A DNA stretch of 64,000 nucleotides from Pirellula staleyi DSM 6068 (GCA_000025185.1 CP001848.1:1671699-1735698), one strand, 5' to 3'. Shown: positions 1-29,282, numbered from the stretch's first letter. The notes: generated from the letters alone by a model not told the origin. Numbers and translations are program-made.

Positions 1-753
1 GAATTCTACGGTGAAGCGGGAGATGACTTCCTGACGGGCAGCTTCAACAACGACCTCTTGGTCGGTGGTCTCGGCAACGATCGCATCAATGCCAGCAGCG
101 GCAACAACATCGTCTGGGGCGACGACGCTCCGACGAGCGACGAGCTCAATCCGCACGAGCTCAACATCGGCGGTAACGATACGCTGAGCGCGCTCGGCGG
201 CAACGATCTCTTCTACGCCGGTGGCGGCAACGATAGTGTGAGCCCTGGCGCGGGTGACGACTGGATCCACGGCGGCTACGGCAACGATCAGCTGAGTGGC
301 AGCTCGGGCAACGACCGCATTTACGGCGCGCAGGGGAACGACACGATCAGTGGCGATGTCGGCGACGACTTCCTCAGCGGCGGCGATGGCGACGATCGGC
401 TGTACGGCCGCGATGGCAACGACGTACTGATCGGCGGCGACGGCGTTGATCTGGTCGACGGCGGCAACGGCAACGACCTGGTGCTCGCGGCGATCACCAC
501 TTACCAAGGGACGAGCGACACGGCGACGAGCAACACGTATAGCAGCGCGGTCGATGCCGCGATGCTCGCGCTGCTGGTGGCCTGGAACAGCGGCGGCCCG
601 GTCGCCCCGAATCTCACCCACACCGACGACCTCGACCGCGACACCGTTTACGGTGGCAGCGGCAACGATCTCTTCGGCACCCACACCAATGCCGACCCCC
701 TCACCAGCGACATCCGCGGCGACTTCAACAACTCCCAAGACACCAGCCTCTAA
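1..753 (+). CDS. 3' fragment (5' end cut by the window) of a second giant RTX-type adhesin-like gene. It encodes GGxGxD nonapeptide (hemolysin-type Ca-binding) repeats and ends TAA at 751-753.
   Basis: Frame 1 is open from base 1 (EFYGEAGDDFLTGSFNNDLLVGG...). The 251 aa are identical to the C-terminus of the 4153-aa protein at 16185-28646. Repeats of the GGNDTL/GGGNDS/GDGDDR type are visible. Confidence 0.8.
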   Translation, partial: EFYGEAGDDFLTGSFNNDLLVGGLGNDRINASSGNNIVWGDDAPTSDELNPHELNIGGNDTLSALGGNDLFYAGGGNDSVSPGAGDDWIHGGYGNDQLSGSSGNDRIYGAQGNDTISGDVGDDFLSGGDGDDRLYGRDGNDVLIGGDGVDLVDGGNGNDLVLAAITTYQGTSDTATSNTYSSAVDAAMLALLVAWNSGGPVAPNLTHTDDLDRDTVYGGSGNDLFGTHTNADPLTSDIRGDFNNSQDTSL

Positions 754-754
754 A

Positions 755-900
755 GCAGCCAGGGACCAGAGGCCAGGGGCCAGAGAAGGCCTGAGACCAG
801 AGGCGAGAGGTGAGAGAAAGCAAGAGACTAGGATCTAGAGACTAGGGTCTAGCCAAAGTCGGAGCAGGCTGAAGCAGCTGAAGAAGAGCAGCAAAATCGA
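755..900. repeat. Degenerate purine-rich heptamer-like low-complexity tract (gaccaga/ggccaga/gactagg units) directly after the stop. It is the diverged counterpart of the perfect heptamer arrays at 16066-16181.
   Basis: Read directly: agggaccagaggccaggggccagagaaggcctgagaccagaggcgagagg...gactaggatctagagactagggtctag. Confidence 0.5.
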
Positions 901-1010
901 GCAGCCAAAGGTGGCTGCTCGGGGGGCGATGGGTTTGGCTCGCAATGCGTGGGAGGATCGGTTCTACTGCTCGGTGCAACAAGGTTTCGTTGTAGCGAGG
1001 GTAAGAGCTC

Positions 1011-2135
1011 ATGGATCGTCGTCAGTGGGGATATGCCGCAGTTTCGGCGGCGCTCGTTGGGGCAAGTTCAGCTCCGCAGGGACCGCTCGTCGCGCTGCTG
1101 ACGGCAGCGGAGCCTCAGATGCGACGGACGCACACGACGATCGAAGGGGACTCGTTCCTGGTGAATGATCGGCCGACTTATGCCGGTCGCTCGTGGCGCG
1201 GTAAGTCGATCGAAGGACTGCTGCTGAATGCCCGTTTTGTGCAAGCGACGTTCGACGATCTGAATGTCGATACACGCTCGCGATGGGTCTATCCCGACAC
1301 AAAAACGTGTGACCCTCGGCGCAACACTCGCGAGTTTCTCGAGCAAATGCCGATCTGGCGCAAAGCAGGACTCCTCTCGTTCACACTCTGCTTGCAAGGG
1401 GGTAGTCCCGAGGGGTACTCCAAAGATCAGCCGTGGGAGAATAGTGCGTTCGATGCGCAGGGAAAACTCCGCGCGGAGTACTTGGCGCGACTCGAGCTCA
1501 TTCTGGATCGAGCCGATGAGCTGGGGATGACGGTGATCTTGGGCTACTTCTACTTTGGCCAGGATCAGCGGCTCGAAGAGGAGTCGGCGGTGATTCGCGC
1601 GGTCACCGAGGCGACGGAGTGGCTCGTCGCCAAAGGTTACCGAAATGTGCTCGTCGAGATTGCCAACGAGTGCGACAACGCGAAGTACGATCATGCGATC
1701 ATTCAGCCGAAGCGAGTGGGCGAGCTGATTGCGCTGGCTCAGAAAATTGGCAAGCCGATCGATCTGAAAGTCGGTGTCAGCCACAACGGCGGGCGCGTGC
1801 CGAGCCAGGAGCTGATCGCCGCCAGCGACTTTGTGCTACTGCATGGCAATGGCGTGGCCGAGCCTTCACGAATCGGTGCGATGGTGGAGCAAGTGCGGCG
1901 TAGTCCTGCCTATCGACCAAAGCCGATCTTATTCAATGAAGATGACCACTTCGATTTCGACCAAGAGGAGAACAACTTTCAGGTTGCGCTGGCCCACCGA
2001 GCTTCGTGGGGCTACTTCGACCCGGGCAAAAGCAACTACGTCGACGGCTATCAGTGTCCCCCGGTGAACTGGTCGGCGAGCACCGATCGAAAGCGGGCGT
2101 TCTTCGAGCTTCTGGCCGAGATCACCGGCAGCTGA
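1011..2135 (+). CDS. Secreted TIM-barrel glycoside-hydrolase-like protein (GH5-like; IANECDN resembles the NEP acid/base motif).
   Basis: 374-aa ORF with a signal-like N-terminus; EIANECDN and LGYFYFGQD motifs. Family assignment is by eye only. Confidence 0.5.
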   Translation: MDRRQWGYAAVSAALVGASSAPQGPLVALLTAAEPQMRRTHTTIEGDSFLVNDRPTYAGRSWRGKSIEGLLLNARFVQATFDDLNVDTRSRWVYPDTKTCDPRRNTREFLEQMPIWRKAGLLSFTLCLQGGSPEGYSKDQPWENSAFDAQGKLRAEYLARLELILDRADELGMTVILGYFYFGQDQRLEEESAVIRAVTEATEWLVAKGYRNVLVEIANECDNAKYDHAIIQPKRVGELIALAQKIGKPIDLKVGVSHNGGRVPSQELIAASDFVLLHGNGVAEPSRIGAMVEQVRRSPAYRPKPILFNEDDHFDFDQEENNFQVALAHRASWGYFDPGKSNYVDGYQCPPVNWSASTDRKRAFFELLAEITGS

Positions 2136-2399
2136 GCATAAAAGAAATTCTTGGTGGGTGTTCGGCCGCAGGCTGGCATCGCTGGGTGATCAGCGGACCC
2201 TTCCAGGGGCGTGAAAAAAGCTGCTCGAGAAGGAGTCCACTGTCGGCTGAATGGGCAAATGGGGGTTGCTAGGGAACTGATTTGCGACGAGCTGAGAACG
2301 TTTTTCGAGGAGCATTCCCGGTGGGCTGATGTGGCAAAGAACAGCCGACCTGCCGCTAGCTGGCAACGGAAAACCGCAGATTTCGAGGGGCTTTTGCTG

Positions 2400-2431
2400 G
2401 GTTGTGGAGATTGGGCGTAGGGCTCTATAAT
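2400..2431 (+). promoter_or_regulatory. Putative sigma70-like promoter upstream of metK (TTGTGG-N18-TATAAT).
   Basis: Perfect TATAAT at about 2425-2430 with a weak -35 18 nt upstream. A possible AGGAG RBS lies 8 nt before the GTG start at 2497. Confidence 0.3.
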
Positions 2432-2496
2432 TTGCCGTTTAGGTTTTTGGGCCCGCCCGGTCCCAACTTCGGGTCGAGTTATCAGGAGCGCAATCA

Positions 2497-3687
2497 GTGG
2501 CATCGGGAAAGTTTTTGTTCACCAGTGAATCGGTCAGCATGGGTCACCCCGACAAGCTTGCCGATCGTATTTCGGATGGCGTTCTTGATGCTTGCTTGGC
2601 GCAAGATCCGATGAGCCGCGTGGCTTGCGAAACGCTCGTCACCACCGACTTCTGCTGCTTGGCTGGCGAAATCACCACCAAGGCTGTGGTGGACTTCGAG
2701 AAAGTGGCTCGCGAAGTGATTCGTGAAGTTGGCTACGTCGACGACCGCATCGGCTTCTCGGCCGACACCTGCAAGGTGGAAGTGCGCCTGCACAGCCAAA
2801 GCCCCGACATTGCTCAAGGTGTGAACGACGACGCCACCAAGGGAAAAGATATCGGCGCTGGCGACCAAGGGCTGATGTTCGGCTTTGCTTGCGACGATAC
2901 CCCCGAACTGATGCCGCTGCCGATCGCTCTCTCGCACCGCATCCTGAACCGCCTGACCGAAGCTCGTCAAAACAAAGAAGTGTCGTGGCTCCGTCCCGAT
3001 AGCAAGAGCCAAGTGACGGTGGAATACGATGGTGATCGCGCTGTCCGTATCGACACCGTCGTCGTCAGCACGCAGCACGACGAAACCGTCAGCGACAAGC
3101 AAGACGTAATTCGCGACTTCGTGATCAACAAGATCATCAAGCCCGAGCTGCCTGAAGAATTGGTGACCGGCGAAATCACCTATCACATCAATCCGACCGG
3201 CAAGTTCGAAGTGGGTGGACCTCACGGCGACTGCGGTCTGACCGGCCGTAAGATCATTGTTGATACCTACGGTGGTTGGGGTCGTCACGGTGGTGGTGCG
3301 TTCAGCGGTAAGGACCCCACGAAGGTCGACCGCAGCGCTGCCTACATGGCTCGCTACGTGGCCAAGAACATCGTGGCTGCTGGTCTTGCTTCGCAGTGCG
3401 AAGTGCAGCTGGCCTACGCCATCGGTGTGAGCGAACCTGTCAGCATCAACATCAACACGTTCGGCACGGGTCGCGTTTCGGAAGATCAACTCGTCACGCT
3501 GGTGCGTCGTAACTTCCCGCTCACTCCCAGCGGCATCATTCGTCACCTCGACCTCCGTCGTCCGATCTATCGCAAGAGTGCTGCTGGTGGCCACTTTGGT
3601 CGTGCTCTTCCCGAATTCAACTGGGAAAAGACCGACAAGGCTGCCATCCTGGCCGAAGAAGCTGGCATCGCCGCCGCTGCTCGCTAG
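2497..3687 (+). CDS. metK: S-adenosylmethionine synthetase (methionine adenosyltransferase).
   Basis: GTG start. [27 protein letters not shown] matches the MetK N-terminus (E. coli [25 protein letters not shown]). [12 protein letters not shown] and [19 protein letters not shown] motifs are present. Confidence 0.95.
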
Positions 3688-3750
3688 TGCAGCTGCTCCG
3701 CTGTGTTGGAGTGTCGACAACAGCCGCTGACGGATTCATCCGTTAGCTCC

Positions 3751-3808
3751 GAAAAACGCAAACGCCGAGTGCCATCTTCCAACGATGCCCTCGGCGTTTG
3801 TTTTTGCG
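3751..3808 (+). terminator. Rho-independent terminator after metK.
   Basis: aaacgccgag...ctcggcgttt stem followed by gtttttgcg. Confidence 0.5.
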
Positions 3809-3952
3809 CTGTCGCTGTCTTGGCTTAGCCTTTTTGGGGCAGCCCGGTTTGGGCAGGCCTGTTTTGCCCGCTGGCATATTTTGAGCAACAAGGTTCTGCT
3901 ACGATTCGCGAGTTCTCGCCATCGATCGGGTAGGCCTCGAACCGAATTTCCC

Positions 3953-4666
3953 ATGCACTCCGCCACCGCAACCACCGCGCGCGACGATCTTCAGGCGGTC
4001 ATCGTGCGCGCAGTGATCGGAGCGGCTGCGACCTCGCTGCTGGTGGTGCTGGTGGTGCTGGCACTCACGCAGCTGACTCTCGGGCTCGCCCTCGTTGTGA
4101 TCAGTGGCAGCCTCGTCTCGCTGGGGCTCGTGATCTACTGTTTTTTGCTCGACCGAGCAGCGGCTACCGAGACACTCAGCGTCGCCAGAATCGCCCCCGC
4201 AGCGACCTCTGAGATCCGGCTCCCTTCGCCTCCAGCTACTGCTCCGGAAGTCGAGCAAGAGACAGAGCTTGCAGCGAATCTGCTTCGGGAATCTGCACTC
4301 GACGAAACTTTGCTTGAAGCGACCTCGGTCGATGAAAATGCCCTGGAAGAAGAGTCGGCTGAGCTCCCCGATGGCGCCACGCTGCGGCTGACCCGCTACG
4401 AGCGTCCCGGCGAAGGTTCGTCGCTAGTGGCAGCGGTCCGAATCGTCCCCGAGCAGGGGGAAACCACGCACGTGCTACATCTGCTGTTTCAGCCTCCCTT
4501 TGAGGCCAGCCCCACGGTGGAAGCTGAAGTGGCAGAAGGAGATGCGGAGCTGTCGACTACCCTCGTCGAGCCCTACGGCTGCCGTCTCGAGGTGAAACTG
4601 GCTCCCGGCACATCCGGGCCAGTGGTGCTGCAATTGGTGGCCTATCTCGAGTCCCCCTCGTTGTAA
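3953..4666 (+). CDS. Hypothetical membrane protein: 2-3 N-terminal TM helices and an acidic Glu/Ala-rich C-terminal region.
   Basis: ORF 3785-4666 overlaps the metK terminator, so I take the ATG at 3953 (MHSATATT...). Hydrophobic LLVVLVVLALTQLTLGLALVVISGSLVSLGLVIY. Confidence 0.45.
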   Translation: MHSATATTARDDLQAVIVRAVIGAAATSLLVVLVVLALTQLTLGLALVVISGSLVSLGLVIYCFLLDRAAATETLSVARIAPAATSEIRLPSPPATAPEVEQETELAANLLRESALDETLLEATSVDENALEEESAELPDGATLRLTRYERPGEGSSLVAAVRIVPEQGETTHVLHLLFQPPFEASPTVEAEVAEGDAELSTTLVEPYGCRLEVKLAPGTSGPVVLQLVAYLESPSL

Positions 4667-4723
4667 TCCACCTCCCCGACTCATCTCCTCGCGGCCTTAG
4701 TTGCATCAGGTTATCATTAGCAG

Positions 4724-5782
4724 ATGCAAGCTCATCTACTTCTCCTCGGCTACTGTGTTCTGATCGTTGCTGCCTCGATGATCGGCGGCTATCTCCCCAC
4801 GCGCGTCCGTCTCACGCATCGCAGCATGCAGATGGTGATGAGCTTCGTCGGCGGCTTTATGCTCGGCGTCGCGCTGCTGCATCTCATTCCGCACAGCCTG
4901 GTGGAAGGTCTCGCGATCGACTCCGCGATGGCCTGGGCACTCGGCGGCCTTCTGTTCATGTTCCTGCTGATCCGCGTGTTTCACGTTCATCAGCATGCCG
5001 ATTTGGAAGGGGACCCCGGACATCATCATGGTCACTCGCACGGGCACAGCCATTCGCATAGCCACGCGCACGATCATGGTCACAGCCACGCGACTCCAGC
5101 AGCTGGCGAGATGGCACTACCGATGGCTGGCACGCCGCACGTGCATGGGCCCGACTGCGATCACACGCATGAGCCTGGTCATGTGACGGCAGCAGGGAGC
5201 TCGCTGAACTGGTTGGGACTCGCCATCGGCCTCAGCTTGCACACGATCATCGATGGTCTCGCGCTCGGCGCTGCAGTGGCTGCTGAAGCCCATGGTGGAC
5301 ACGCCTTTGCATTATTCGGCCTTGGTACGTTTCTAGCCGTGCTGCTACACAAACCGCTCGACGCTTTGACGATCACGTCGCTGATGAAAGCGGGAGGCTG
5401 GAACACCAAGAATGCCATGATTGCCAATGCTTGCTTCGCGGTGATGTGCCCGCTGGGAGCGATTGGCTTTGTGCTGGGAGTCGACAATTTTGTCGGCGAG
5501 CAGGCATTCGTGATTGGCTGTGCCCTCGCTTTTGCAGCGGGCGTTTTCCTCTGCATCTCGCTGGCCGACTTGCTCCCCGAAGTGACGTTTCACTCGCACG
5601 ATCGGGCCTCGCTCACCGCGCTGCTGTTGCTCGGTGTCGCGATTGCGTGGGGAATTGGGCTCGTCGAAGAGCCGCATACTCACGGGCATGGTGCTCACAG
5701 CCACGCGGCCGATGATCACGGTCATAGTCACGACGACCACGATCACGACCATGCTCCGAAAGCCTCGCCGAAAAAGCCGTAG
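4724..5782 (+). CDS. ZIP-family divalent metal transporter with a His-rich cytoplasmic loop and His-rich C-tail.
   Basis: Multiple TM segments. HGHSHGHSHSHSHAHDHGHSH loop. LHTIIDGLALG (HxxxDG) motif. C-terminal HGHGAHSHAADDHGHSHDDHDHDH. Confidence 0.65.
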   Translation: MQAHLLLLGYCVLIVAASMIGGYLPTRVRLTHRSMQMVMSFVGGFMLGVALLHLIPHSLVEGLAIDSAMAWALGGLLFMFLLIRVFHVHQHADLEGDPGHHHGHSHGHSHSHSHAHDHGHSHATPAAGEMALPMAGTPHVHGPDCDHTHEPGHVTAAGSSLNWLGLAIGLSLHTIIDGLALGAAVAAEAHGGHAFALFGLGTFLAVLLHKPLDALTITSLMKAGGWNTKNAMIANACFAVMCPLGAIGFVLGVDNFVGEQAFVIGCALAFAAGVFLCISLADLLPEVTFHSHDRASLTALLLLGVAIAWGIGLVEEPHTHGHGAHSHAADDHGHSHDDHDHDHAPKASPKKP

Positions 5783-5818
5783 CCGCTTCTGACGGATCGG
5801 AGCGAGATGTGTGAGCTC

Positions 5819-8368
5819 TTACTTGCCGCTGCGCAAATGGCGCATCAATCCGTGCGTCGGAAACGCGCCGCCGATCCCATAGACGTGATGTACTTTGTGA
5901 TCGGAGTAGAGCTTGTGATAGCCGGCGATCGAACGCTCGATTTCGCTACCGATCTGCACGAAAATGGGGCTCATCGTCGCATGGAGCAAATGAAAGCGGC
6001 GTGCTTTCGATGGCTCGCGTTTCAGCTGCTCAGCTTGCGGATAGGTGAGCTGAAATTGCTTCACGAGGGCCTGTGTCATGGTGTCCCCTCCCTTGCCGAA
6101 GCTGCGAAACCAAACCGAAGTCGCCGTGCTGATCACCACGTTGCTCGACTCGGTTCCTAGATCGACAATCGCAATCGCATCGCCACTTGCGGCCTGCTCG
6201 GCAGCTCCTTGGGCTTTGATTGCCTTCAGCTTCGGGTCAGTCTCGAGCGTATCGGGATAGAACTCCTGCACCATCGCATTGTGGATCGCGATGCACTCGC
6301 TTTGCACAATGTCGACGTTGATTCCGGCGGTCTTGAAGATCGCCAGCCGCTCTTGCACATGCACTTCGCGGGCGGCAACCACCATGATGCGGCGGGGGAA
6401 CTCGTCGGCGGTCTTCGCATCGCGTTCGTCGAGTATGTAGTGGCTCCAGCATAGCTCCTCGAGGTTGATCGGAATCTGGTGCTTGGTTTCATACTGCACT
6501 GCGCCGGCCACTTTTTTGGCCGGGAGTGGCGGCAGTTCGAAAAAGCGTCCAAGCACTCGATGGCCGGGGACCGCAATCACCACCTTCGCCCCCTTGAGAT
6601 CCGCGCGCGACAGGAAATCCTTCAGTGTCGCTTGCATCAGCTCGTTGCGATCAAGTTCCGCATCGGGGTGCGTGAGAGGGGAACTGTGCGGAATAAACTC
6701 GGCCTGTTCTAGTTTCACGATCTTCGTTTTGGGATCGCGCGTTAGCTTCACCGCTTTGAGGGCGTACTCGGAGAGATCGATTCCCCAGGCGATGTCGCTC
6801 GTCTTTGCGCCGAAGGAAAAACCGATCGCGCCGAGCATCGATTTTTTCTGACCGGGCATGAGATTCAGGTCGATGGCAGCGCGGCCAATGCCTTGCAGCG
6901 CGAGTCCTGCAGCGACAAAAAACTGCCCGGGCTGATCGGCCATCGCTTCGGCGACCGCTTCAGGAACATTCTCGAATTTTGTGAAGTGCCCGAGCCAGTC
7001 GACTGGCAATCCCAGCATCGTCCGTTTGGGGATCGGTGCCCAGTTGGGGGCCGCGATGCGGGGGTCGGCATGTTTCCCTTTCACCTTCACGTCGAGTTTT
7101 TCTTTGAGCGTTTTGCCTTCGGGGTTCGAGGCAGCGATCTTCAGAAAACGATTCGCGAGCGCCACCAGCGGCGGGTCGGCTAGGGCTGCGAGTCGCAGGT
7201 TTAGCAGCAGCGCTTGAAGTTCGTTCGCGGTATCGAGCAGCGAATCGGCCTCTTCGGTTTTCGCAAACGATGGGATCTGCTCGAGGGACGCAATCGCTTC
7301 TTCATAGGCGTGCGTTTTGAGTTTGCTTTTGGCCTGTTTAACAAACTGATCGCGGAGCGAAAATGCCAGCTCTTGAGCCTTCGTATGATCGGGCTTGAGC
7401 ATCAGCAGACGCTCGATTTTGGGCAGGAGATCCCAGCTCCGTTTTTCTTCCACAGCCTGGCGAATTTCGCCACTTAGCTGCAGCAGCTCGGTGCGACAAT
7501 CGCGCGATTTTTCGAGGAGCCGCTGATGCGCGTCGCTGCGGAGTGGCACAGGCACTTCGTCGATCACCGAGAGCGATTTGTCGTAGGCATGGCGCTCGAA
7601 GTACTTGGTCGCCAAGACGAGCGCTTGCGCGGCCTTCTGTTTTTCTTCATCGCGGCGAGCTTCCACCCGCTTAATCTCGTCGAGCGCATCGATGGCGAAC
7701 GATTCGAAGCGTGGGTCGTCGATGGCTGCGATACCTCGCAGCGCCGAGATGGCCGCATCGTAGCGATGCGACTCGAGCAGCTCCATCGCCGCTTCTTTAC
7801 GCTGCCGCAGTTGCTGCGTTTGCGCGTCGAGATTGCCATGCACATCGGTGCCGCAAATGCCGCAAAAACGCTCGTCAGCAGCACACTCGGCGTTGCATTT
7901 GGGGCACTTTTCCCAGAGCGGTTTGCCACAGCTGCCGCAAAACTTACGATTGGTCGGATTGGATTTCGTGCAGTGGCGGCAAACCACCGTTTGCCCTGCA
8001 GCGGCGAGGGGTCCTGCATTTCCGTTGCCCGAGGAGTCGGTGTTGTCGACTCGTGGACGGGGGCCCACACCGCGCCGCTTGAGCGCTGCGTCGAGCACCG
8101 CCTTACGTTCAGGGTCCGCCATTTCACGAATGGCCGCTTGCAACTCGTCCCACACTTGCTGCCACAGCTGCGGATCGGAGACGGTGGTGCGAATGGTTTC
8201 GAGTTGTTCTTGCTGACGCACCACCGCCGCTTGAATGCGGGCCAGGTTGCTTTCGAGCGGAGGCAAACCGAGAAGCTGGTAGGGATTCAGCGGGCGATCG
8301 TAGTCAGGTACACCGAGCCACACGCGATAAGGATCGAAATCGATGGCGGTTTCTGCCATGGTTCGCAC
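5819..8368 (-). CDS. Multidomain protein. N-terminal J-domain-like segment without an HPD motif, a double zinc ribbon, a long TPR/helical middle and a C-terminal PilM-like actin-fold ATPase domain.
   Basis: NPYQLLGLPPLESNLARIQAAVVRQ is J-like. CRHCTKSNPTNRKFCGSCGKP...CPKCNAECAADERFCGICG is the ribbon pair. The C-terminus (GIDLSEYALKAVKL...AIVDLGTESSNVVI...VYGIGGAFP) resembles type IV pilus PilM. Confidence 0.7.
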   Translation of the reverse strand: MRTMAETAIDFDPYRVWLGVPDYDRPLNPYQLLGLPPLESNLARIQAAVVRQQEQLETIRTTVSDPQLWQQVWDELQAAIREMADPERKAVLDAALKRRGVGPRPRVDNTDSSGNGNAGPLAAAGQTVVCRHCTKSNPTNRKFCGSCGKPLWEKCPKCNAECAADERFCGICGTDVHGNLDAQTQQLRQRKEAAMELLESHRYDAAISALRGIAAIDDPRFESFAIDALDEIKRVEARRDEEKQKAAQALVLATKYFERHAYDKSLSVIDEVPVPLRSDAHQRLLEKSRDCRTELLQLSGEIRQAVEEKRSWDLLPKIERLLMLKPDHTKAQELAFSLRDQFVKQAKSKLKTHAYEEAIASLEQIPSFAKTEEADSLLDTANELQALLLNLRLAALADPPLVALANRFLKIAASNPEGKTLKEKLDVKVKGKHADPRIAAPNWAPIPKRTMLGLPVDWLGHFTKFENVPEAVAEAMADQPGQFFVAAGLALQGIGRAAIDLNLMPGQKKSMLGAIGFSFGAKTSDIAWGIDLSEYALKAVKLTRDPKTKIVKLEQAEFIPHSSPLTHPDAELDRNELMQATLKDFLSRADLKGAKVVIAVPGHRVLGRFFELPPLPAKKVAGAVQYETKHQIPINLEELCWSHYILDERDAKTADEFPRRIMVVAAREVHVQERLAIFKTAGINVDIVQSECIAIHNAMVQEFYPDTLETDPKLKAIKAQGAAEQAASGDAIAIVDLGTESSNVVISTATSVWFRSFGKGGDTMTQALVKQFQLTYPQAEQLKREPSKARRFHLLHATMSPIFVQIGSEIERSIAGYHKLYSDHKVHHVYGIGGAFPTHGLMRHLRSGK

Positions 8369-8476
8369 TTGATTCTCTGAAGGAACAGGACGGGTGGTGG
8401 GCTAGGTGGGAGGTCGAGCAGCGGAGGATTCCGTCAATTGTTGACGCACGCGACACGTTTGCTCGTCCGTGATGAT

Positions 8477-9667
8477 TTACTCACTCACCACCATCAGCAG
8501 ATTCAGCGACACTTCTCCGATCCGGGGATGCCCAGTGGCAATGCGAATCGTTCCGTAGGGATTGCCAAGCATCTGACAGGCAGGGGCATCTTCGGGAATG
8601 GTGATGACAAGGTCATAGAGCCCAGCGACTTGATCGTCGGACTCGTGAGGCTTTAGTTCAGCCTGCAGGAAATCGGGGATCAGCGTGATTTTCGGCGCGG
8701 TGAGCGTCGGTTCATCGTCCCGAATCTTGACGAGCACCTTGGTGGCCTTGGCCTTCCCTTGCTTGGTCTTGCCGAGATCGATTTGACCTTCGCCGTCGAG
8801 CGAACTGACAGCCGCCCCGTACATGGTGAGCCGAAGTCCCACTTGGCCTTTGAGTTCCAGTTGAAAATCGATCGGCTGAGCACCCGGCGTTCCGGGCGAG
8901 ACTTGCATGTACAGCGTGTCGCTAAAGTTCCCTTGCGGCAGGTCGGGGGGGAGGGTGACGACGAGCTTCTGCACCATTTTGGCGTCGTAGTCCGGCAAAT
9001 CGTCGATCGTCGCGGGCTCGATTTTCCACGCTAGGCCCGGCAAATTCGACTTCAGGTTGCTGAGCGTGAAGTTGTCATACAGCTGCGAGTAAAGAAGCAC
9101 CGACGCTGTGGTTTCCGTGCCGGGCTGCATCTTCGGGACGATGATCTCGGGCACGTTAGCGTTGAGTTCCTGCCGCACTTTTCCCTTCACGTTAAAGTCG
9201 ATCGACTTACGGAACGGGTCGTTGGTTTTGATTTCGGCATAGTGTGAGTAGAACAAGTTGTAGCGCCCGGTATTCCACTCGAGCTTCACTTTCCCTTCGC
9301 CACCGGGGGGGATTTCGCGGTCGGAGAGTCCACCGACCGTGCACTTGCAGGTGGTGCTGCCGACATCGAGCTTCAGCGGCGCATCGCCGTCGTTGCGGAT
9401 GACAAACTCATGAAAGCCATCGGTCAGCGGGTCCATGACACCGAAGTCGTACTCTTTCGACGGCGCGATCGCTTCGGGCAATTTGGTTTTCTTGCGTCCC
9501 TCGACGGTGGCCGCCTCGACAATAGCGGCTCCATTCTCGCCAATGACCACGCGCAGTTCGGGTGAGTCGCGATGCTTATACAGAAAAGTGCTCTGCGACG
9601 ACGCATAGACAATCAGCGTGGCGAGGGCGAGCAGAATCGTGGCGACAATGGCAACGGTGCGATTCAT
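8477..9667 (-). CDS. DUF1573 (Ig-like fold) domain protein with an N-terminal TM anchor.
   Basis: Start at ATG 9667 (MNRTVAIVATILLALATLIVYA). YDFGVMDPLTDGFHEFVIRNDGDAPLKLDVGSTTCKCT fits the DUF1573 repeat (FDFGxV...F.I.N.G..PL.I..V...C.CT). Same strand and directly upstream of the PilM-like gene. Confidence 0.7.
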   Translation of the reverse strand: MNRTVAIVATILLALATLIVYASSQSTFLYKHRDSPELRVVIGENGAAIVEAATVEGRKKTKLPEAIAPSKEYDFGVMDPLTDGFHEFVIRNDGDAPLKLDVGSTTCKCTVGGLSDREIPPGGEGKVKLEWNTGRYNLFYSHYAEIKTNDPFRKSIDFNVKGKVRQELNANVPEIIVPKMQPGTETTASVLLYSQLYDNFTLSNLKSNLPGLAWKIEPATIDDLPDYDAKMVQKLVVTLPPDLPQGNFSDTLYMQVSPGTPGAQPIDFQLELKGQVGLRLTMYGAAVSSLDGEGQIDLGKTKQGKAKATKVLVKIRDDEPTLTAPKITLIPDFLQAELKPHESDDQVAGLYDLVITIPEDAPACQMLGNPYGTIRIATGHPRIGEVSLNLLMVVSE

Positions 9668-9904
9668 AAGAGCAAGAATCCGTCGGGACTGAGATAGCAA
9701 ACGACCTGTGGAGTGTTTGGCGGCGATGCCATCCTGGCGACGATTGGGAAATCGCGCCGCTGGGCCTTGCGGCGCGAGGTTTGTAGTCTGCCTCACCGCT
9801 GTGAAGATTGAGTGAAGTAATGATGAAGCGAGTTGCGGTTGAACTCGATATTCACACCTCTTCAGCCGCTTCCTTGCACCCGCAATCGGCTGCGGCAAAG
9901 CGCA

Positions 9905-9944
9905 TGAAAAAGGACAGGCGAAGAGCATGGCCCTCCGCCTGTCC
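9905..9944 (-). terminator. Rho-independent terminator on the minus strand downstream of the DUF1559 gene.
   Basis: On the minus strand: ggacaggcg-N15-cgcctgtcc stem followed by tttttcatgcg. Confidence 0.55.
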
Positions 9945-10132
9945 GGCATGTTGTCAATCGTTGTGGTAAGTCAAAGCGAGGGGGTACTTCGCGAAGCAGG
10001 GTTCACCGCCGACGAGTCGTGGTGAGTCCGTTGCTGGCGAGAAGCTTTATCGTTGAGGTTCGCTCGCGGAGGGAGATTCTGGCGTCGACCTGCGACACCA
10101 GAATCTCGTGATCACGTGGAGCGAAGACACGA

Positions 10133-11389
10133 CTAGTCTTCCAGGGTGCCCTTGGTGAGCTTGAACAACCAGATACCGTTGAAGATTTCTCCAGGTGGGA
10201 GTTCGACAACGTTGTCGCTGTAACCGATCGCCGAGGTGTCGGCCAAACCTGGCGTCACTGGGAAGCCTGGGTTGAGGAAGCCGTCGCCGTTGCTATCGGT
10301 GAATTCCTTCACAGCACCGTCAGCCATCACGATATTGCAGCTGGCGTTCTTGCCACCACCGTGGGTAGCAAACCAGTCGCGCGTGTCTTGGAGGTAGGTG
10401 TTGTTGACAGTTCCGAGAGGTTCGTCGCAATCCTTGCGGAAGTCGCACGAGATTTGGTTGCTCATGTTGGTGCCGACAGGGATCAGCTTGACGCCGTTCG
10501 AACCGTTCCAGAAAGCAGGACCGTCGTTGAACGCTTCGCTCAGAAGAGCACCCGATGGAATCAGGGACTTCGTGGTGGCGGTGCCGAGACCGGTGTTGAT
10601 GTAGTCGGTGGGGCTGATTTCGAGCGTAACAGCCATCACAGCTTCGTCGACGTCACCAGGAGCCGAGTCACCCAGGAGGGGAATCGACGAGGTGGGAACG
10701 CCAGCGTTTTCAGCAACACGACGGGTCAGAGGACCTTGCGTACCACCGAAGCCCTTATGGCCCGAACCGCTGAGAGCGGAGGTGAGCACTGGCGAGCTTT
10801 GGTTAGCTTGGGTCACACGGGGGGCCGTGCGAGCCATGAAGTAGCTCTGAGCGTAGTTGTTGTTGAAGCCTTCACCAATGAAGTAGTGCGAGACGAACGT
10901 AGCGCGCTGAGCGGTATCGTCGTCGGTGCCGCCGAAACCTTCGGCTGGAGCTGGACCAGCAACGCCACGCCATTCCGACTTGCCGCAGAGGCCAGCAGTC
11001 AAGCGAGCGGCTGGAACGCCGTCGGACAGTTCGGTCGTGTTACGACCGTAGACGTCGTTCAGCTTTTCGGTGCCGAGCAGTGGGTTGCTGGGGCAGGTCA
11101 TTTCGCTGGGCTTAGCAGCATTGATGGCGACAAGGTCAGCGACCCAGCCCCAAGTGTCCAAGCAACCGTCGCGACGGAAGTCCGAAGCACCGGTGCAGTA
11201 GCGACCCGAAGGATCTTTGTCGGCGAACAGCTGGAAGCCGATGCCGAACTGACGGAGGTTGTTCTTGCAAGCTGCATTGCGGGCAGCTTCACGAGCACGG
11301 CTAACAGCTGGGAGAAGCAGGGCGACCAGGATGCCGATGATCGCAATGACCACGAGCAACTCGATCAGGGTAAAACCACGACGTTTCAT
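10133..11389 (-). CDS. DUF1559 / prepilin-type N-terminal cleavage-methylation domain protein (type II secretion pseudopilin-like; H-X9-DG family).
   Basis: [51 protein letters not shown] is the canonical class III signal plus DUF1559 core. AGGAG RBS 7 nt upstream of ATG 11389. Confidence 0.85.
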
Positions 11390-12082
11390 CTCAAACTCCT
11401 GAAACAAAGAAACAAAAAATGTGCGAACCGAGGCGTATTGCGAGAGTTAGTCGTAGTGAGCTCTGGGGGCTTGAACTGCGACTGACGCTTGCGATCAAAA
11501 AACTTGTGAACCGTTCCAACTGTGGCTGCGTACTGGGTGAAAACTCTTGGGTTCTGTGAGCACTATCGTGTCGATGCCGTGGGAAGATCTGACCGAGATT
11601 GTGAGTAACTCCCGAGAAACTCTTCCGAAGATTGTCGACTGAAACTCTCTTCTTCAACCTGCTTCCACCAAGCTCTGCTTTTTCCATCCGTTTCTGTGAA
11701 GCCCGCTCGATCGCTGCTCTTCGCACGGCGATCTAGCACCCCAAAGAAGCCAAAACTCTAGTTGCCGGTTTCAAACGTTGTGTGTGTGTTCCGTAAAGGT
11801 TTGCGGAAACGGGGAACGTTCTTTCCTGCTCGCCGGCGCCCACCCCACACTCGTGTGGACACCTCAGACACTTGCCGAGACGCTCTGCTTGAGTAGCTGG
11901 AACCGAGCCATTGTGTGCGACAAAAACCGGCTCTCGAAATCACGTTTCTCTAGGCGTTTTTTGAGCATTTCGCAGAGTCTTTGGCCCATCGCGCGGCGCT
12001 AGTGCAGAGCAGATTTCTAGCGCAGCTGTGGTATTTCGTGCGCACCGCAGGTGCGCACGGACTCTACGATCACGCCCCGCTG

Positions 12083-13252
12083 TTATTCGCGTTTGGCGTC
12101 GAGCGAGTACAAGCTGAAGATCTCGTCGGGGCTCACTTCCATTTCGCTATCCTCGAAGCCACCGACTGCGGGGAAGCCGTTGTTGAGCGAACCATCGCGA
12201 TTGGTATCGGTGAAGGAGCGAACGCTCCCATCGACGAACAGAATGTTGCAGGCACCACGATGCACCGGAGCAAAACCGCGATAGTCTTGCATGGCATCTT
12301 TGGCCCACACGCGCCACCAACCACCAGCACCCTCTTTGGGTGTGAAGTCGGCAAAAGCAGGGGGAACCACTTCGCTCATGTCGGCGATGCGTACCGGTCC
12401 ACGTGTGAACGACTGTGCCATCGGTGTGCCGCTTAGGATCCGGCCAAAACCGACATCAAGCGTCCCCACTGTCTCACCATCGCCGATGATCGGAACAAAG
12501 CTCGAAGCAGCCTTGGCCGTATCGCTGAGCGTGCGTCGCATCCCACCACGTGTGGTGTTGCGGCTGCGAACATCGCTGCCACATCCGGGAATCGCTTGGC
12601 GAGGATTGCCGTAGAGCAAGTTCACTTCACTACGGACCAGGAACCACGATGCGGTGTAGTTGGTGTTGTAATGCTTGTCGTAGATTTCGGTCTTCACCAC
12701 GCTCGAACGAGCATCACTGGCCGTGGGAGACGCACCGACAATCGCGCGGCAAGGGTTGGTGATTGTCGTTCCGTCGATGGCCAATTTGGGAGGACTGCCG
12801 AGCACGTTTTGGATTTGCATGCATGGAAACGGTCCCGCACCTTGAAAGGCTGTGACGTCGCGCTGCAGCAGGTCGTTGTAAGTCTCGCTGACGAGAGCGT
12901 TGTTGGAAGGGCAGAGCATGCCGCCGACAGGAGTTCCTTGGTTCACCAGATCGGCGACCCAGCCGATCTCGGTCACGGCCCCATCTTCCATCCAGTTGAA
13001 ACCACCGGTGCACAGGAGTTCGTTATGGCGTTCGGCGTGGACTGACAGACCGAGACCAAATTGGCGGAGGTTGTTTTGGCAGGCAGCGGTGCGAGCTGCT
13101 TCGCGAGCTGCAGAGACCGCCGGGAGCAGCAGCGCCACCAGAAGGCCAATGATCGAAATGACGACGAGCAATTCGACGAGCGTGAACGCACGCTGGTTCG
13201 ATCGACTCGCAAGGTCGCATGATCGTGGTTGGCTCAAGCGGAAATGCCACAT
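12083..13252 (-). CDS. DUF1559 / prepilin-type N-terminal domain protein, a diverged tandem paralog of 10133-11389.
   Basis: ...[51 protein letters not shown] use the ATG at 13252; the ORF tool's GTG at 13267 is an alternative. Confidence 0.8.
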
Positions 13253-14009
13253 AGAAAATCGCTCCACAGTTACTCATCTCCTGCCAACTGGCGCTAATGC
13301 CCAGCGGGCGCGTCCGAGCAGGGTCAAGAATCTCACCTAAGTCTCACTGGGCAGATAAAGCAGCCGTGAGTGGGTCGTGAACTTCGAGTTAGCTTCACAT
13401 GAAGGATTCGCGCAGAGCGGTTGGCCATGCGTTCGACCGCACAGCGTGGCAATTCGACGCGGGAGTCTCGCTTCAAAAATCGCCGTAAACTGCTTAAGAA
13501 GTGCTACTTAGCACGAATGTTCTGCAGATCCATGTCTGGCCGATGACACGAGCTGAAACGCTCGAACCGGCCGATAGTCGCCAATGCGGTGCGGCTTACC
13601 ACATGCTTATGCGGAGCGTTTCGAGCCGCCCGAAGCGGAATTTCGAGCTAGGGGATCGAGCGTCTACGCGCGAACTGCGTGCCCCAGGCTGAACCGACTA
13701 GCACACCCCCAGCAGCGGCAGCAGCCGGCTCGAGCGGCACACTGATTTTCAGTCCTGTGCGGTTTCCCGAAACACTTGCGGGAAATCAAGTTGCTAGCGA
13801 TGGAGAACGCTCTTCGCCGGGATTTCGAGGGTTGCTATGCTCCCGGAAATCGGTGTGGCGAAACGTGGTCCAGGAACGTGACCTAAATTCCCCTAAGGAT
13901 TGCGGAGCATGGTATCTCGCCCGCGACGCAAGCCACTCGGGACTGCACGTGGACGTTGATTTCGTGCGCTGCTGTCGAACTCTGCTGAATATGAAGGAAG
14001 TCTTGCATC

Positions 14010-15884
<1,875 letters not shown>

Positions 15885-15942
15885 CCATCCACGCCCCACC
15901 CGAGCAGCTGACTTCTTTCCGCTGCTCGGCGAAACAATTTGC

Positions 15943-15990
15943 GAGCCTGTATTTCGAGCCTCAAACGCTTGTAATACAGGCTTTTTTGCT
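15943..15990 (+). terminator. Rho-independent terminator after glmS.
   Basis: gagcctgta...tacaggct stem followed by ttttttgctttc. A second hairpin ccgagcagc/gctgctcgg lies at about 15900-15930. Confidence 0.55.
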
Positions 15991-16065
15991 TTCAGCCTGC
16001 AGCTCGGTTTTACTGCTCTTCTTCCTCTGCTCTTCTTCAGCTGCTCCTGCCTGCTCCGTCTTTGG

Positions 16066-16123
16066 CTAGTCCCTAGTCCCTAGTCCCTAGTCCCTAGTCC
16101 CTAGTCCCTAGTCCCTAGTTCCC
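16066..16123. repeat. Tandem heptamer microsatellite (CTAGTCC)x7 plus one imperfect unit.
   Basis: Read directly: ctagtccctagtccctagtccctagtccctagtccctagtccctagttccc. Confidence 0.9.
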
Positions 16124-16153
16124 AGCCTCTGGCTTTCTCTCGCCTCTCGCCTT

Positions 16154-16181
16154 CTCTGGCCTCTGGCCTCTGGCCTCTGGC
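16154..16181. repeat. Tandem heptamer microsatellite (CTCTGGC)x4, preceded by degenerate units.
   Basis: cttctctggcctctggcctctggcctctggccgc immediately before the giant-gene stop (tta at 16185-16187). Confidence 0.9.
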
Positions 16182-16183
16182 CG

Positions 16184-16937
16184 CTTAGAGGCTGGTGTCT
16201 TGGGAGTTGTTGAAGTCGCCGCGGATGTCGCTGGTGAGGGGGTCGGCATTGGTGTGGGTGCCGAAGAGATCGTTGCCGCTGCCACCGTAAACGGTGTCGC
16301 GGTCGAGGTCGTCGGTGTGGGTGAGATTCGGGGCGACCGGGCCGCCGCTGTTCCAGGCCACCAGCAGCGCGAGCATCGCGGCATCGACCGCGCTGCTATA
16401 CGTGTTGCTCGTCGCCGTGTCGCTCGTCCCTTGGTAAGTGGTGATCGCCGCGAGCACCAGGTCGTTGCCGTTGCCGCCGTCGACCAGATCAACGCCGTCG
16501 CCGCCGATCAGTACGTCGTTGCCATCGCGGCCGTACAGCCGATCGTCGCCATCGCCGCCGCTGAGGAAGTCGTCGCCGACATCGCCACTGATCGTGTCGT
16601 TCCCCTGCGCGCCGTAAATGCGGTCGTTGCCCGAGCTGCCACTCAGCTGATCGTTGCCGTAGCCGCCGTGGATCCAGTCGTCACCCGCGCCAGGGCTCAC
16701 ACTATCGTTGCCGCCACCGGCGTAGAAGAGATCGTTGCCGCCGAGCGCGCTCAGCGTATCGTTACCGCCGATGTTGAGCTCGTGCGGATTGAGCTCGTCG
16801 CTCGTCGGAGCGTCGTCGCCCCAGACGATGTTGTTGCCGCTGCTGGCATTGATGCGATCGTTGCCGAGACCACCGACCAAGAGGTCGTTGTTGAAGCTGC
16901 CCGTCAGGAAGTCATCTCCCGCTTCACCGTAGAATTC
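16184..16937. repeat. Perfect inverted copy of window positions 1-754 (at least 754 bp; mapping x <-> 16938-x).
   Basis: Identical translated ORFs in three different frames: 58-753(+) = C-terminus of 16185-28646(-); 446-838(+) = 16115-16492(-) for 103 aa; 6-203(-) = 16735-16932(+). The revcomp of 16881-16937 matches 1-57 when checked directly. Identity breaks at 755/16183. Confidence 0.9.
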
Positions 16938-28646: not shown

Positions 28647-29191
28647 ACGCTCGGATCGCGCGGCGCAGTGAGCTCGAGCCGCAGCAACGAGTGAACGGTG
28701 CTGCGGATAAGCCAGTGTTGAGCGCGAAGCATCGCCGCACGGCGGCTGGCGATACTGGAAAACGCGGAGAGTTTCGACGAAGCAGGGGTTGCTAAGTAAC
28801 CTGAATTCCGTTGCGGTTACGAGGCAGGGCTACGAGCGAAAACTGACGCGAGGCGAGAGAAGTGGGAGAGGCACCTAGTGGGGGAAATTGGGGGAGGTAA
28901 GGGGAACGACTCGAGGCGATCTTGGATTCGTGGCGTGGCAGACTGCTGAGCGCAACGATCAGCGCTTCAGCATAGTTGGGGAGATCCAAAAACGCACCTT
29001 CTGACTAGACAATAATAAGGTGATCGTCAGCCAGTCAACAGAATTTAGTGCAAACTGGATGGAATGTGCACGCAGGGAACGCCTTTTGGGGTGGATAAAT
29101 GTCCGCAAATGGGAGTGGCGGAGAGGCGATTGACGTGCCAAAGCGGGTTTGAAGCAGCAGCCGTGAGATCGAAGCGGGCTGATCGGAACGC

Positions 29192-29227
29192 AAAAAAAGC
29201 TGAAGAACCTTGCGGCGCTTCAGCTTT
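29192..29227 (-). terminator. Rho-independent terminator (minus strand) after the DUF1080 gene.
   Basis: On the minus strand: aaagctgaag-cgccgcaaggtt-cttcagcttt followed by tttttgcg. Confidence 0.65.
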
Positions 29228-29282
29228 CATGATCTGGGTGAATAGTCGCGAAAACTATCGCAACTGTTTATCTATAAAGAAC

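What the first reader, a model, noticed from the sequence alone, without database searches (positions are those of the whole stretch)
1..16937. Perfect inverted repeat of at least 754 bp makes two convergent giant-adhesin genes share an identical 3' end and brackets a 15.4-kb segment
Window bases 1-754 are the exact reverse complement of 16184-16937, so the C-terminal RTX beta-roll of a second, window-truncated giant gene matches the last 251 codons of the 4153-aa gene exactly. Identity ends exactly one base past the TAA, and downstream sequence is only loosely similar low-complexity DNA. Zero divergence over 754 bp, with a boundary pinned to the CDS end, points to recent gene conversion between paralogous giant genes, perhaps maintaining a shared C-terminal secretion or anchoring module. 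Alternatively it is an assembly or cloning artefact: the window begins with GAATTC, which may be a clone boundary. Inverted repeats of this size can mediate inversion of the intervening 15.4 kb (GH-like, metK, ZIP, PilM-like, DUF1573, two DUF1559, glmS).
Basis: seen in the sequence. Interest (0 to 1): 0.75.

Follow-up and report, generated by a model that had tools for sequence, protein, structure and literature searches.

The report
Shared tail of giant Pirellula genes
The perfect inverted repeat is real, but it is only the visible tip of a several-kilobase, nearly identical tail module that at least six giant surface-protein genes of Pirellula staleyi share, most likely kept alike by recombination between the copies: a known kind of process seen here at an unusual scale.

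Summary
The repeat is real. Window 1-753 is the exact reverse complement of 16185-16937 (753 bp, not 754), and identity ends on the last base of TAA. About 140 bp of homologous but diverged heptamer-microsatellite trailer follows.

The window comes from the finished Pirellula staleyi DSM 6068 chromosome. GAATTC at base 1 is therefore a coincidence, and a cloning artefact is excluded.

The right gene is ADB16019.1 (4109 aa). Four other P. staleyi giant proteins elsewhere in the genome have unrelated N-terminal heads. They share its last 950-1520 residues, ungapped, at about 97.5-99.2% identity. Their variant patterns are mutually incompatible, which indicates a mosaic.

Independent assemblies of a 98.8%-identical strain break exactly at the outer module boundary (window ~20.6-20.7 kb) and at both trailers. 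A related species also has a homologous gene end in front of the same neighbouring gene.

The 753 bp is thus a window-truncated view of a module of up to ~4.5 kb, homogenised by intragenomic recombination. I could not read the left gene, so the true length for this pair is only bracketed between 0.75 and ~4.5 kb. Inversion of the 15.4-kb segment is possible but unshown.

This is a new member of a known kind (concerted evolution of surface-protein gene tails). Interest is moderate.

The parts
1..753 (+). Last 250 codons plus TAA of the left giant gene, whose 5' part lies outside the window. This is the left arm of the perfect inverted repeat.
   Evidence: 100% over 753 nt. (open frame, translation identical to the right gene's end). 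(matches ADB16019 at all 6 sites that vary among the paralogues in this stretch).
754..895 (+). Left 3' trailer. It consists of degenerate heptamer microsatellites (GCCAGAG-like, GAGACTA-like) followed by a conserved block, GCCAAAGTCGGAGCAGGCTGAAGCAGCTGAAGAAGAGCAG.
   Evidence: It is homologous to the right trailer, with 14.9% substitutions and 24 gap columns.
898..921 (.). A 10-bp stem hairpin at the inner edge of the left trailer. Contigs from related strains start here, at base 903.
   Evidence: terminator-like hairpin. (L084 and L085 both start at 903).
1011..15884 (.). Unique 15.4-kb segment between the arms. Genes in order: conserved hypothetical ('GH-like'), metK, a hypothetical, a ZIP transporter, a PilM-like zinc-ribbon protein, DUF1573, two DUF1559/N-methyl proteins, and glmS.
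   Evidence: A single 15,068-bp Logan contig from a 98.2%-identical strain starts at window 903 and, by its length, runs to about 15,950; bases 903-13,661 were aligned.
16027..16184 (-). Right 3' trailer: (GCCAGAG)n at 16137-16182, a perfect (GGGACTA)7.7 at 16066-16119, and then the conserved block.
16185..16937 (-). Right arm of the perfect inverted repeat. It encodes the RTX beta-roll and the C-terminal tail of the right giant gene.
16185..20690 (-). Full constant C-terminal module of the right gene (residues ~2609-4109), as shared with ADB16950 and ADB17518. The inner identity fronts lie at ~19913 for ADB17731 and ~19031 for ADB18769.
   Evidence: ungapped near-identity measured from the C-terminus. 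(contigs of the related strain end at 20598 and 20666).
16185..28514 (-). Right giant gene, ADB16019.1 / WP_012910283.1 of Pirellula staleyi DSM 6068 (4109 aa). It has an N-terminal planctomycete leader motif (weak, sub-threshold Pfam match), two PA14 domains, three C-type lectin domains, PATR repeats, a long stalk with no Pfam match, and RTX repeats.

Best explanation
The two arms are the 3' ends of two real, convergent giant surface-protein genes of Pirellula staleyi DSM 6068. Both belong to a family of at least six giant genes built as variable head plus constant tail.

The heads are unrelated or only distantly related. The last ~950-1520 codons form a constant module: a stalk with no Pfam match, an RTX beta-roll, a helix and a short tail. 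Repeated homologous recombination between the copies keeps the module nearly identical. This can be non-reciprocal gene conversion. For inverted copies it can also be reciprocal crossover, which would flip the DNA in between and swap the tails.

The identity fronts lie at different distances from the 3' end in different paralogues. On the 3' side, identity stops at the stop codon, where an indel-rich heptamer-microsatellite trailer begins and homology becomes too poor for an exchange to continue.

**Shown**
- The perfect repeat.
- The diverged trailer.
- The family and its identity fronts.
- The mosaic variant pattern, at protein level.
- Independent support from other assemblies.

**Inferred**
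- The recombination mechanism itself.
- How far identity runs for this particular pair (between 0.75 and ~4.5 kb).
- That the module serves export or anchoring of the proteins. It looks like the C-terminal part of type I secretion substrates, but no secretion genes were found nearby.
For: - **Perfect repeat.** 753-bp inverted repeat.
- **Trailer older than the CDS identity.** The trailer has 21/141 substitutions and 24 gap columns, against 0/753 in the CDS. Expected synonymous differences are 13-26 and none are observed, giving P<=2e-6. Strains of this species differ by 1.2-1.8% in unique DNA, so the pair was homogenised after those strains split (P~1e-4).
- **Family.** The five best representatives sharing the last 1200 aa are all from P. 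staleyi DSM 6068: ADB16019, ADB17731, ADB16950, ADB17518 and ADB18769.
- **Tail identity.** It is ungapped from the C-terminus. Values are 99.2% over 1250 aa, ~97.6% over 1520 aa (two proteins) and ~98.5% over 950 aa. The heads show no more than local 25-73% domain matches.
- **Mosaic.** Informative variant patterns in the last 950 aa are mutually incompatible: 140+141 share 12 sites, 140+142 share 3, 141+142 share 3.
- **Graded fronts.** Upstream of each identity front the paralogues are still homologous, at 30-70%, so the fronts are graded rather than fusion points.
- **Independent data.** In a 98.8%-identical strain, a Logan contig and the MAG GCA_002483025.1 contig run unbroken from the right flank through 7.9 kb of head. 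They stop at 20666 and 20598, 24 and 92 bases past the last head-specific residue at ~20690, which fits a k=31 branch. The 15-kb unique segment assembles as one contig bounded by the trailers.
- **Related species.** In a species whose neighbouring protein is 73% identical, the same synteny holds. The contig ends 52 nt inside a CDS ending PNDLRPDFNPLQDIQLP*, homologous to TSDIRGDFNNSQDTSL*.
- **Relative genus.** Anatilimnocola aggregata has two giant paralogues whose last 1178 aa are 88.6% identical.
- **Assembly quality.** The genome was finished with 8-kb Sanger clones, 454, Illumina polishing and PCR/primer walks (PMC3035237).
- **Fold.** The RTX beta-roll is supported by Pfam, PDB sequence hits to CyaA, lipases and HlyA, and an AlphaFold model with pLDDT>90 over the roll.
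Against: - The left gene beyond the window could not be read, so the length of identity for this pair is only bracketed.
- Its protein was not among the cluster representatives. It may be grouped with a paralogue or be an annotated pseudogene.
- DNA of the other four paralogues was not available. The mosaic test therefore rests on 22 informative amino-acid sites, not on nucleotides.
- No module sequence from a second strain was obtained. The classical test, within-strain identity exceeding between-strain identity, was not done.
- In a 2009 hybrid assembly, polishing with ambiguously mapped reads could have erased a few real differences between copies, which would exaggerate '100%'.
- No type I secretion genes are in the window, nor next to one homologue.
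Confidence: 0.7

Rival explanations
1. A single recent segmental duplication, or a recent fusion of one tail onto several heads, with no ongoing exchange. On this view the copies are alike simply because they are young.
For: Perfect identity over 753 bp. The modules are ungapped across all the paralogues.
Against: - The trailer directly after the stop is ~15% diverged with many indels, so the duplication of this end is old.
- The left gene end sits in the same place in a species whose neighbouring protein is only 73% identical.
- The identity fronts differ between paralogues and are graded.
- The variant patterns are mutually incompatible.
- Some head domains match other species at 41-59%, while the module matches them at 30-41%.
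Confidence: 0.12
2. An assembly or cloning artefact. On this view the left arm, or its perfect identity, was created by repeat collapse, a chimeric join or a clone boundary at GAATTC.
For: - Several copies of a 3-4.5-kb repeat are hard to resolve. The 2009 assembly used 454 pseudo-reads and Illumina polishing.
- The window starts with GAATTC.
Against: - The window comes from inside a finished 6.2-Mb chromosome.
- GAATTC is part of the repeat itself (16932-16937) and occurs 19 times in the window.
- The left arm is followed by its own distinct trailer.
- The other paralogues keep copy-specific variants, so the copies were resolved.
- Independent short-read assemblies break at both trailers and at the outer module boundary.
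- A related species has a homologous gene end at the same locus.
Confidence: 0.07
3. A programmed invertible segment. On this view the inverted repeats exist to flip the 15.4-kb segment as a switch.
For: Inverted repeats of at least 753 bp flank the segment. A crossover between convergent identical tails would leave both genes intact.
Against: - No invertase or recombinase gene lies in or next to the segment.
- The segment carries housekeeping genes (metK, glmS) with their own orientation-independent expression.
- The repeats are coding sequence shared with paralogues elsewhere in the genome.
- No data show both orientations.
Confidence: 0.04

Closest known systems
Concerted evolution of the 3' segments of Helicobacter pylori outer-membrane adhesin paralogues (babA/babB, homA/homB, sabA/sabB/hopQ)
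   Same: - These are surface-protein paralogues at separate loci.
- The variable or allelic 5' and middle parts determine binding.
- The 3' segments are nearly identical within a genome because of RecA-dependent intragenomic gene conversion (PMC3960876).
   Different: - Here the genes are 9-13.5 kb and the homogenised tail is 2.9-4.6 kb, against a few hundred bp there.
- There are at least six copies.
- The heads are unrelated in architecture, not allelic.
- The tail is an RTX-type module, not a beta-barrel.
- Within-strain versus between-strain identity was not tested here.
tufA/tufB of Salmonella and E. coli: inverted duplicate genes that co-evolve by gene conversion and can invert the DNA between them
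   Same: Inverted, near-identical coding repeats on one chromosome. Homologous recombination both homogenises them and can invert the intervening segment.
   Different: The tuf genes are whole-gene duplicates of a housekeeping gene, hundreds of kb apart. Here only the tails are shared, the spacing is 15.4 kb, and further copies exist.
Giant RTX adhesins and toxins exported by type I secretion (LapA-like adhesins, CyaA, HlyA, serralysin-type enzymes)
   Same: A very large, repeat-rich extracellular protein with C-terminal GGxGxD nonapeptide repeats that form a beta-roll just before the C-terminus.
   Different: - No ABC transporter, membrane-fusion or TolC-like genes were found nearby.
- The N-terminus carries the planctomycete 'RRxFFExLExR' leader motif instead of a LapA-type retention module.
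- The secretion route is untested.
Giant genes of Planctomycetes (Reva and Tummler 2008; Kohn et al. 2016, PMC5177795)
   Same: Genes over 5 kb encoding presumed surface proteins, common in this phylum.
   Different: That paper counts giant genes and lists their domains. In the passages I read, it does not report a shared, near-identical tail module or recombination between giant genes.

Membership tests
Gene families under concerted evolution by intragenomic gene conversion | A paralogous segment is far more alike than its flanks, or than the age of the duplication allows. | tested here: met
   0/753 differences in the CDS, against 14.9% substitutions plus indels in the adjoining trailer. P(0 synonymous differences)<=2e-6. 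The tails are ~97.5-99.2% identical between paralogues whose heads are unrelated.
Gene families under concerted evolution by intragenomic gene conversion | A mosaic (phylogenetically incompatible) distribution of variants among the copies. | tested here: met
   Among 22 informative amino-acid sites, the patterns 00110 (12 sites), 00101 (3) and 00011 (3) cannot all fit one tree. This is at protein level only; nucleotides were not available.
Gene families under concerted evolution by intragenomic gene conversion | Copies within one strain are more alike than orthologous copies between strains. | not testable with these tools
   No module sequence from the 98.8%-identical strain could be fetched. 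Only indirect support exists: modules are at least ~97.5% identical within P. staleyi, 88.6% within Anatilimnocola aggregata, and 30-41% between species.
Type I secretion (RTX) substrates | Tandem GGxGxDxUx calcium-binding nonapeptides forming a beta-roll near the C-terminus. | tested here: met
   PF00353 at E=2.9e-17. NCBIfam RTX models match partially. PDB hits to CyaA, lipases and HlyA. The AlphaFold beta-roll has pLDDT>90. The top Foldseek hit is the CyaA RTX domain.
Type I secretion (RTX) substrates | Cognate ABC transporter, membrane-fusion protein and outer-membrane factor, often encoded nearby. | tested here: not met
   None among the Pfam-scanned ORFs of the 64-kb window, nor beside homologue P0008. 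The rest of the genome was not searched.
Type I secretion (RTX) substrates | An uncleaved C-terminal secretion signal that is functionally required for export. | not testable with these tools
   The last ~90 residues (a helix at model residues 630-646, then a low-confidence tail) are conserved among homologues. There is no sequence test for the signal.
Classical autotransporters (type V secretion) | A C-terminal beta-barrel translocator domain. | tested here: not met
   Pfam finds PATR passenger-type repeats only (PF12951). No autotransporter barrel is found, and the C-terminus is an RTX roll. The database name 'autotransporter-associated beta strand repeat protein' refers to the repeats only.
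Site-specific invertible DNA switches | A recombinase gene next to or inside the segment, with short specific inverted repeats. | tested here: not met
   No recombinase family was found in 1-29 kb. The repeats are long coding sequence.
Planctomycete giant genes | A gene over 5 kb encoding a multidomain, presumably extracellular protein. | tested here: met
   The gene is 12.3 kb and the protein 4109 aa. Domains found are PA14, C-type lectin, PATR and RTX, plus a weak Planc_extracel motif.

The most novel reading that the evidence does not exclude
The constant 3-4.5-kb tail may be more than a passively homogenised region. It could act as a recombination handle that lets the cell exchange or re-assort very different binding heads among expression sites. 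For the inverted pair, it would do so by flipping 15.4 kb. That would give a planctomycete a cassette-like system for varying its giant surface proteins. The tail itself may define a still undescribed export or anchoring route common to Pirellulaceae.
Probability: 0.1. Interest if true: 0.7.

Novelty: new member of a known kind. Interest (0 to 1): 0.45.

Why it matters
Giant genes are a hallmark of Planctomycetes, but their organisation and evolution are poorly understood.

- In P. staleyi, at least six of them share one nearly identical tail of up to 1500 residues. This points to a common export or anchoring module. It also gives a concrete target for experiments: delete or tag the tail, then look for its partner.
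- It shows that kilobase-scale homologous recombination operates between dispersed genes in this phylum. This affects genome stability, through inversions and deletions between copies.
- It also affects assembly. These loci will break or collapse in short-read MAGs, as was seen here.
- For the scan itself, a repeat that touches a window edge must be read as a lower bound.

Tried and rejected
- **Recovering the left gene.**
  - Exact-protein look-ups of the neighbouring ORF, with two start codons, and of the 4109-aa protein found nothing. The source genome is not in that contig collection.
  - The genome-contig scan with the neighbouring protein returned only relatives of at most 65% identity.
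  - The metagenome scan with the last 130 aa was swamped by generic RTX patterns.
- **Word-indexed homologue searches.** One on the whole giant protein timed out. Two on its tail returned nothing above 50% identity, although 100% matches exist. That tool apparently does not return very long proteins; only the exhaustive representative search found them. The third search, with the neighbouring protein, gave a useful related-species locus.
- **Exact cluster look-up** of the two partial products from the related strain: not in the collection.
- **Codon third-position profile along the gene**, as a mosaic signal: the fluctuations are not specific to the module boundary, so I dropped it.
- **Rfam on both trailers:** only sub-threshold, low-complexity matches to vertebrate lncRNA models, so I rejected them.
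- **Literature search for sample SRR845265:** nothing found.
- **Contig breaks at 27.2 kb** in two other samples. These show that not every break marks a repeat boundary. I rely on the 20.6-kb break only because it coincides with the protein-level identity front.
Full report
**1. The observation**

The repeat finder reports one long inverted pair in 1-20000. Its arms are 1-753 and 16185-16937, 753 nt, 100% complementary, 15431 nt apart.

Reading both strands shows that the stop codon TAA occupies 751-753 on the left and 16187-16185 on the right. The next base differs: A at 754 and G at 16184.

The left arm is an open frame from the first base of the window, 250 codons plus the stop. The repeat is cut by the window edge, so 753 bp is a lower bound.

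A self-comparison of the whole window shows no other copy. It extends the homology, with gaps, to about 891 on the left and 16027 on the right.

That extra ~140 bp is a trailer made of heptamer microsatellites. On the right these are (GCCAGAG)n and a perfect (GGGACTA)7.7; on the left they are degenerate versions. A 40-nt block with 3 mismatches follows. These heptamers occur nowhere else in the window.

**2. Age of the trailer against age of the coding identity**

A global alignment of the trailers gives 21 substitutions in 141 aligned positions (14.9%) and 24 gap columns. The 250 codons hold about 174 synonymous sites. At the trailer's divergence, or even at the 7.5% of its non-repetitive block, 13-26 synonymous differences are expected. 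None is seen (P<=2e-6).

The coding identity is therefore much younger than the duplication of this gene end. Purifying selection cannot explain identical synonymous sites. Recombination between the copies can.

**3. Where the window comes from**

An exhaustive search of 1.84 billion cluster representatives with the last 1200 residues of the right gene returned a 4109-aa protein at 100%. It is identical, residue for residue, to the translation of 16185-28514. It is ADB16019.1 / WP_012910283.1 of Pirellula staleyi DSM 6068, on a 6,196,199-bp replicon.

That genome is a finished JGI project. It used an 8-kb Sanger library at 10.6x, 454 at 20.4x and Illumina polishing, and mis-assemblies and gaps were resolved by primer walks and PCR (PMC3035237).

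The window is thus an arbitrary slice of a finished chromosome. GAATTC at base 1 is part of the repeated sequence (16932-16937) and occurs 19 times in the window. It is not a clone boundary.

**4. The repeat is the tip of a family-wide module**

The next four hits of the same search are also P. staleyi DSM 6068 proteins, from distant places in the genome:

| Protein | Length |
|---|---|
| ADB17731 | 3688 aa |
| ADB16950 | 4503 aa |
| ADB17518 | 3688 aa |
| ADB18769 | 2976 aa |

Each represents its own 50% cluster because the N-terminal two thirds are different proteins. Head-to-head comparisons give only local domain matches.

Counted without gaps from the C-terminus, their identity to ADB16019 is:

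| Protein | Identity to ADB16019 | Over the last |
|---|---|---|
| ADB17731 | 99.2% (one difference in the last 850) | ~1250 residues |
| ADB16950 and ADB17518 | ~97.6% | ~1520 residues |
| ADB18769 | ~98.5% | ~950 residues |

In window coordinates the identity fronts lie at about 20690, 19913 and 19031. Upstream of each front the proteins are still homologous at 30-70%. The fronts are therefore graded edges inside an ancestral common tail, not fusion points.

All five proteins begin with the planctomycete leader motif RRxFFExLExR, seen by inspection of the sequences; Pfam matched it only weakly in the right gene (PF07595, E=0.0097, below the gathering cut-off).

The left gene of the window is a sixth member. 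In the 250 residues that can be seen, it agrees with ADB16019 at all six positions that vary among the others.

**5. Mosaic pattern**

In the last 950 residues, which all five proteins share, 22 sites are informative:

- 12 group ADB16950 with ADB17518.
- 3 group ADB16950 with ADB18769.
- 3 group ADB17518 with ADB18769.
- The rest give yet other groupings.

These patterns cannot all fit one tree. Together with the different identity fronts, this is what repeated exchange of tracts between copies produces. The test is at protein level only, because the DNA of the other copies was not available.

**6. Independent evidence that the arrangement is real**

Exact-protein look-ups found contigs from environmental relatives that are 97-99% identical to the window.

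- **Unique segment.** In sample SRR845265, the unique segment between the arms assembles as one 15,068-bp contig. It starts at window 903 and, by its length, ends near 15,950 (aligned as far as 13,661). Contigs from other samples stop at 903 on the left and at 15924-15990 on the right. All of them stop at the trailers.
- **Right flank.** A Logan contig and the contig of MAG GCA_002483025.1 are identical to each other where they overlap. They run unbroken from 33.8 kb through the first 7.9 kb of the giant gene and stop at 20666 and 20598.
- **Match to the module boundary.** The last head-specific residue, against ADB16950 and ADB17518, is encoded at about 20691-20693. A k=31 assembly should run about 30 bases into shared sequence and then stop, and it does.

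Two conclusions follow. The relative also carries the multi-copy module with the same outer boundary. In that strain the first 7.9 kb of the right gene is single-copy, so the left and right genes cannot be whole-gene duplicates. For this pair, the inverted repeat is therefore at least 753 bp and at most about 4.5 kb.

One caution applies. Contigs from two other samples break at ~27.2 kb, so a break alone is not proof. The 20.6-kb break counts because it coincides with the protein-level front.

**7. The left gene is old at this locus**

The ORF just right of the left arm (1011-2135) has a 73%-identical homologue on a 50-kb Logan contig from another species. The following genes there have the same order: metK, PilM-like, DUF1573, DUF1559.

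That contig ends 307 nt upstream of the homologue. Its first 55 bases encode ...PNDLRPDFNPLQDIQLP followed by a stop. This is clearly homologous to the P. staleyi tail end ...TSDIRGDFNNSQDTSL followed by a stop.

So a gene with this tail stood in front of this neighbour before the two species split. There too, the assembly breaks just inside the tail.

Homologous tails at 30-41% identity are attached to proteins of 1265-4916 aa in other members of the group. Anatilimnocola aggregata has two giant paralogues whose last 1178 residues are 88.6% identical.

Some P. staleyi head domains match other species at 41-59%. That is higher than the module's cross-species identity, while heads within P. staleyi are unrelated. 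The heads are old, and the sameness of the tails is recent.

**8. What the module is**

Pfam finds two PA14 domains, three C-type lectin domains and PATR repeats in the head and middle of the right gene. RTX nonapeptides lie near the end. No domain is found in the ~1200 residues between the last PATR block and the RTX repeats.

NCBIfam and PDB sequence searches match the RTX part to hemolysins, CyaA and secreted lipases and proteases.

An AlphaFold model of the last 700 residues, built on 11 homologues, has mean pLDDT 71. It shows a beta-rich domain, a confident beta-roll (pLDDT>90), one helix and a low-confidence tail. Foldseek puts the CyaA RTX domain first.

There is no autotransporter barrel, so the database name refers only to the PATR repeats. 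This looks like the C-terminal end of type I secretion substrates. However, no transporter genes lie in the window or beside one homologue. The export or anchoring role is therefore an inference.

**9. Inversion**

Inverted identical repeats of 0.75-4.5 kb are good substrates for homologous recombination. Because the genes converge, a crossover inside the tails would invert the 15.4-kb segment and swap the distal tails and trailers, leaving both genes intact.

Nothing shows that this happens. No recombinase gene is present, the segment holds housekeeping genes, and I had no data on orientation in other strains.

**10. Verdict**

It concerns a family of at least six genes and a tail of up to 4.5 kb, and the 753 bp is a window artefact. 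The artefact alternative is not supported.

The closest described parallel is the concerted evolution of the 3' segments of H. pylori bab, hom and sab adhesin genes (PMC3960876). Papers on planctomycete giant genes that I read do not mention such a shared tail.

I rate it a new member of a known kind, of moderate interest. The remaining gap, the sequence of the left gene, can be closed by simply reading the public chromosome next to this window.

Noticed in passing
window 16066-16119, 16137-16182; 757-852: The heptamer microsatellites (CTAGTCC x7.7, perfect; GCCAGAG-type) occur only in the 3' trailers of the two giant genes. They are perfect behind the right gene and degenerate behind the left one. 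Their role is unexplained; they may be a barrier to recombination, a terminator context or a binding site. Contigs from related strains never assemble through them.
   Followed up: partly
window 898-921 and 15940-15981: Hairpins, one with a T-run, sit at the inner edges of both trailers. Short-read contigs of related strains start or end within or next to them (903; 15924-15990).
   Followed up: partly
window 54050-54856 (-): An IS4/IS5-family DDE transposase ORF (PF01609, PF13340). Directly beside it, at 54901-55794, is a second 3-keto-disaccharide hydrolase paralogue. The first is at 29283-29987, next to the giant gene.
   Followed up: no
window 5819-13267 (-): A run of genes that looks like a pilus or secretion-related cluster: an 849-aa protein with a double zinc ribbon and a PilM domain, a DUF1573 Ig-like protein, and two DUF1559 proteins with N-terminal methylation motifs. 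The 5' ends of the two DUF1559 genes are 76% identical (11238-11364 vs 13050-13176).
   Followed up: no
window 21484-23220, 25057-25722, 26611-27792: Diverged internal repeats (74-86%) lie inside the head of the right giant gene. They correspond to the three C-type lectin units, the two PA14 units and a duplicated N-terminal unit. Contigs from two other samples break near 27.2 kb.
   Followed up: partly
L175 1-55 (Logan SRR33531176 contig, related species): The contig ends 52 nt inside a CDS whose end, PNDLRPDFNPLQDIQLP*, is homologous to the P. staleyi tail end. It lies directly upstream of the homologue of the window's ORF 1011-2135. There is no microsatellite trailer there.
   Followed up: partly
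P0259 / P0260 (Anatilimnocola aggregata, 9.0-Mb genome): Two giant paralogues (4347 and 4916 aa) share 88.6% identity over their last 1178 residues, with different heads. This is the same architecture but less homogenised than in P. staleyi.
   Followed up: partly
L168 (JGI 3300000271, PBR_1150916): This contig matches window 25966-36491 at 97-100%, but in some twenty short pieces separated by small gaps. It looks like a low-quality assembly of the same species.
   Followed up: no
window 1011-2135 (+): This conserved 374-aa protein has no Pfam or NCBIfam match, yet more than 7000 close homologues (E<=1e-100) exist across Acidobacteriota, Verrucomicrobiota and Planctomycetota. It is a widespread family with no match in Pfam or NCBIfam.
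   Followed up: no
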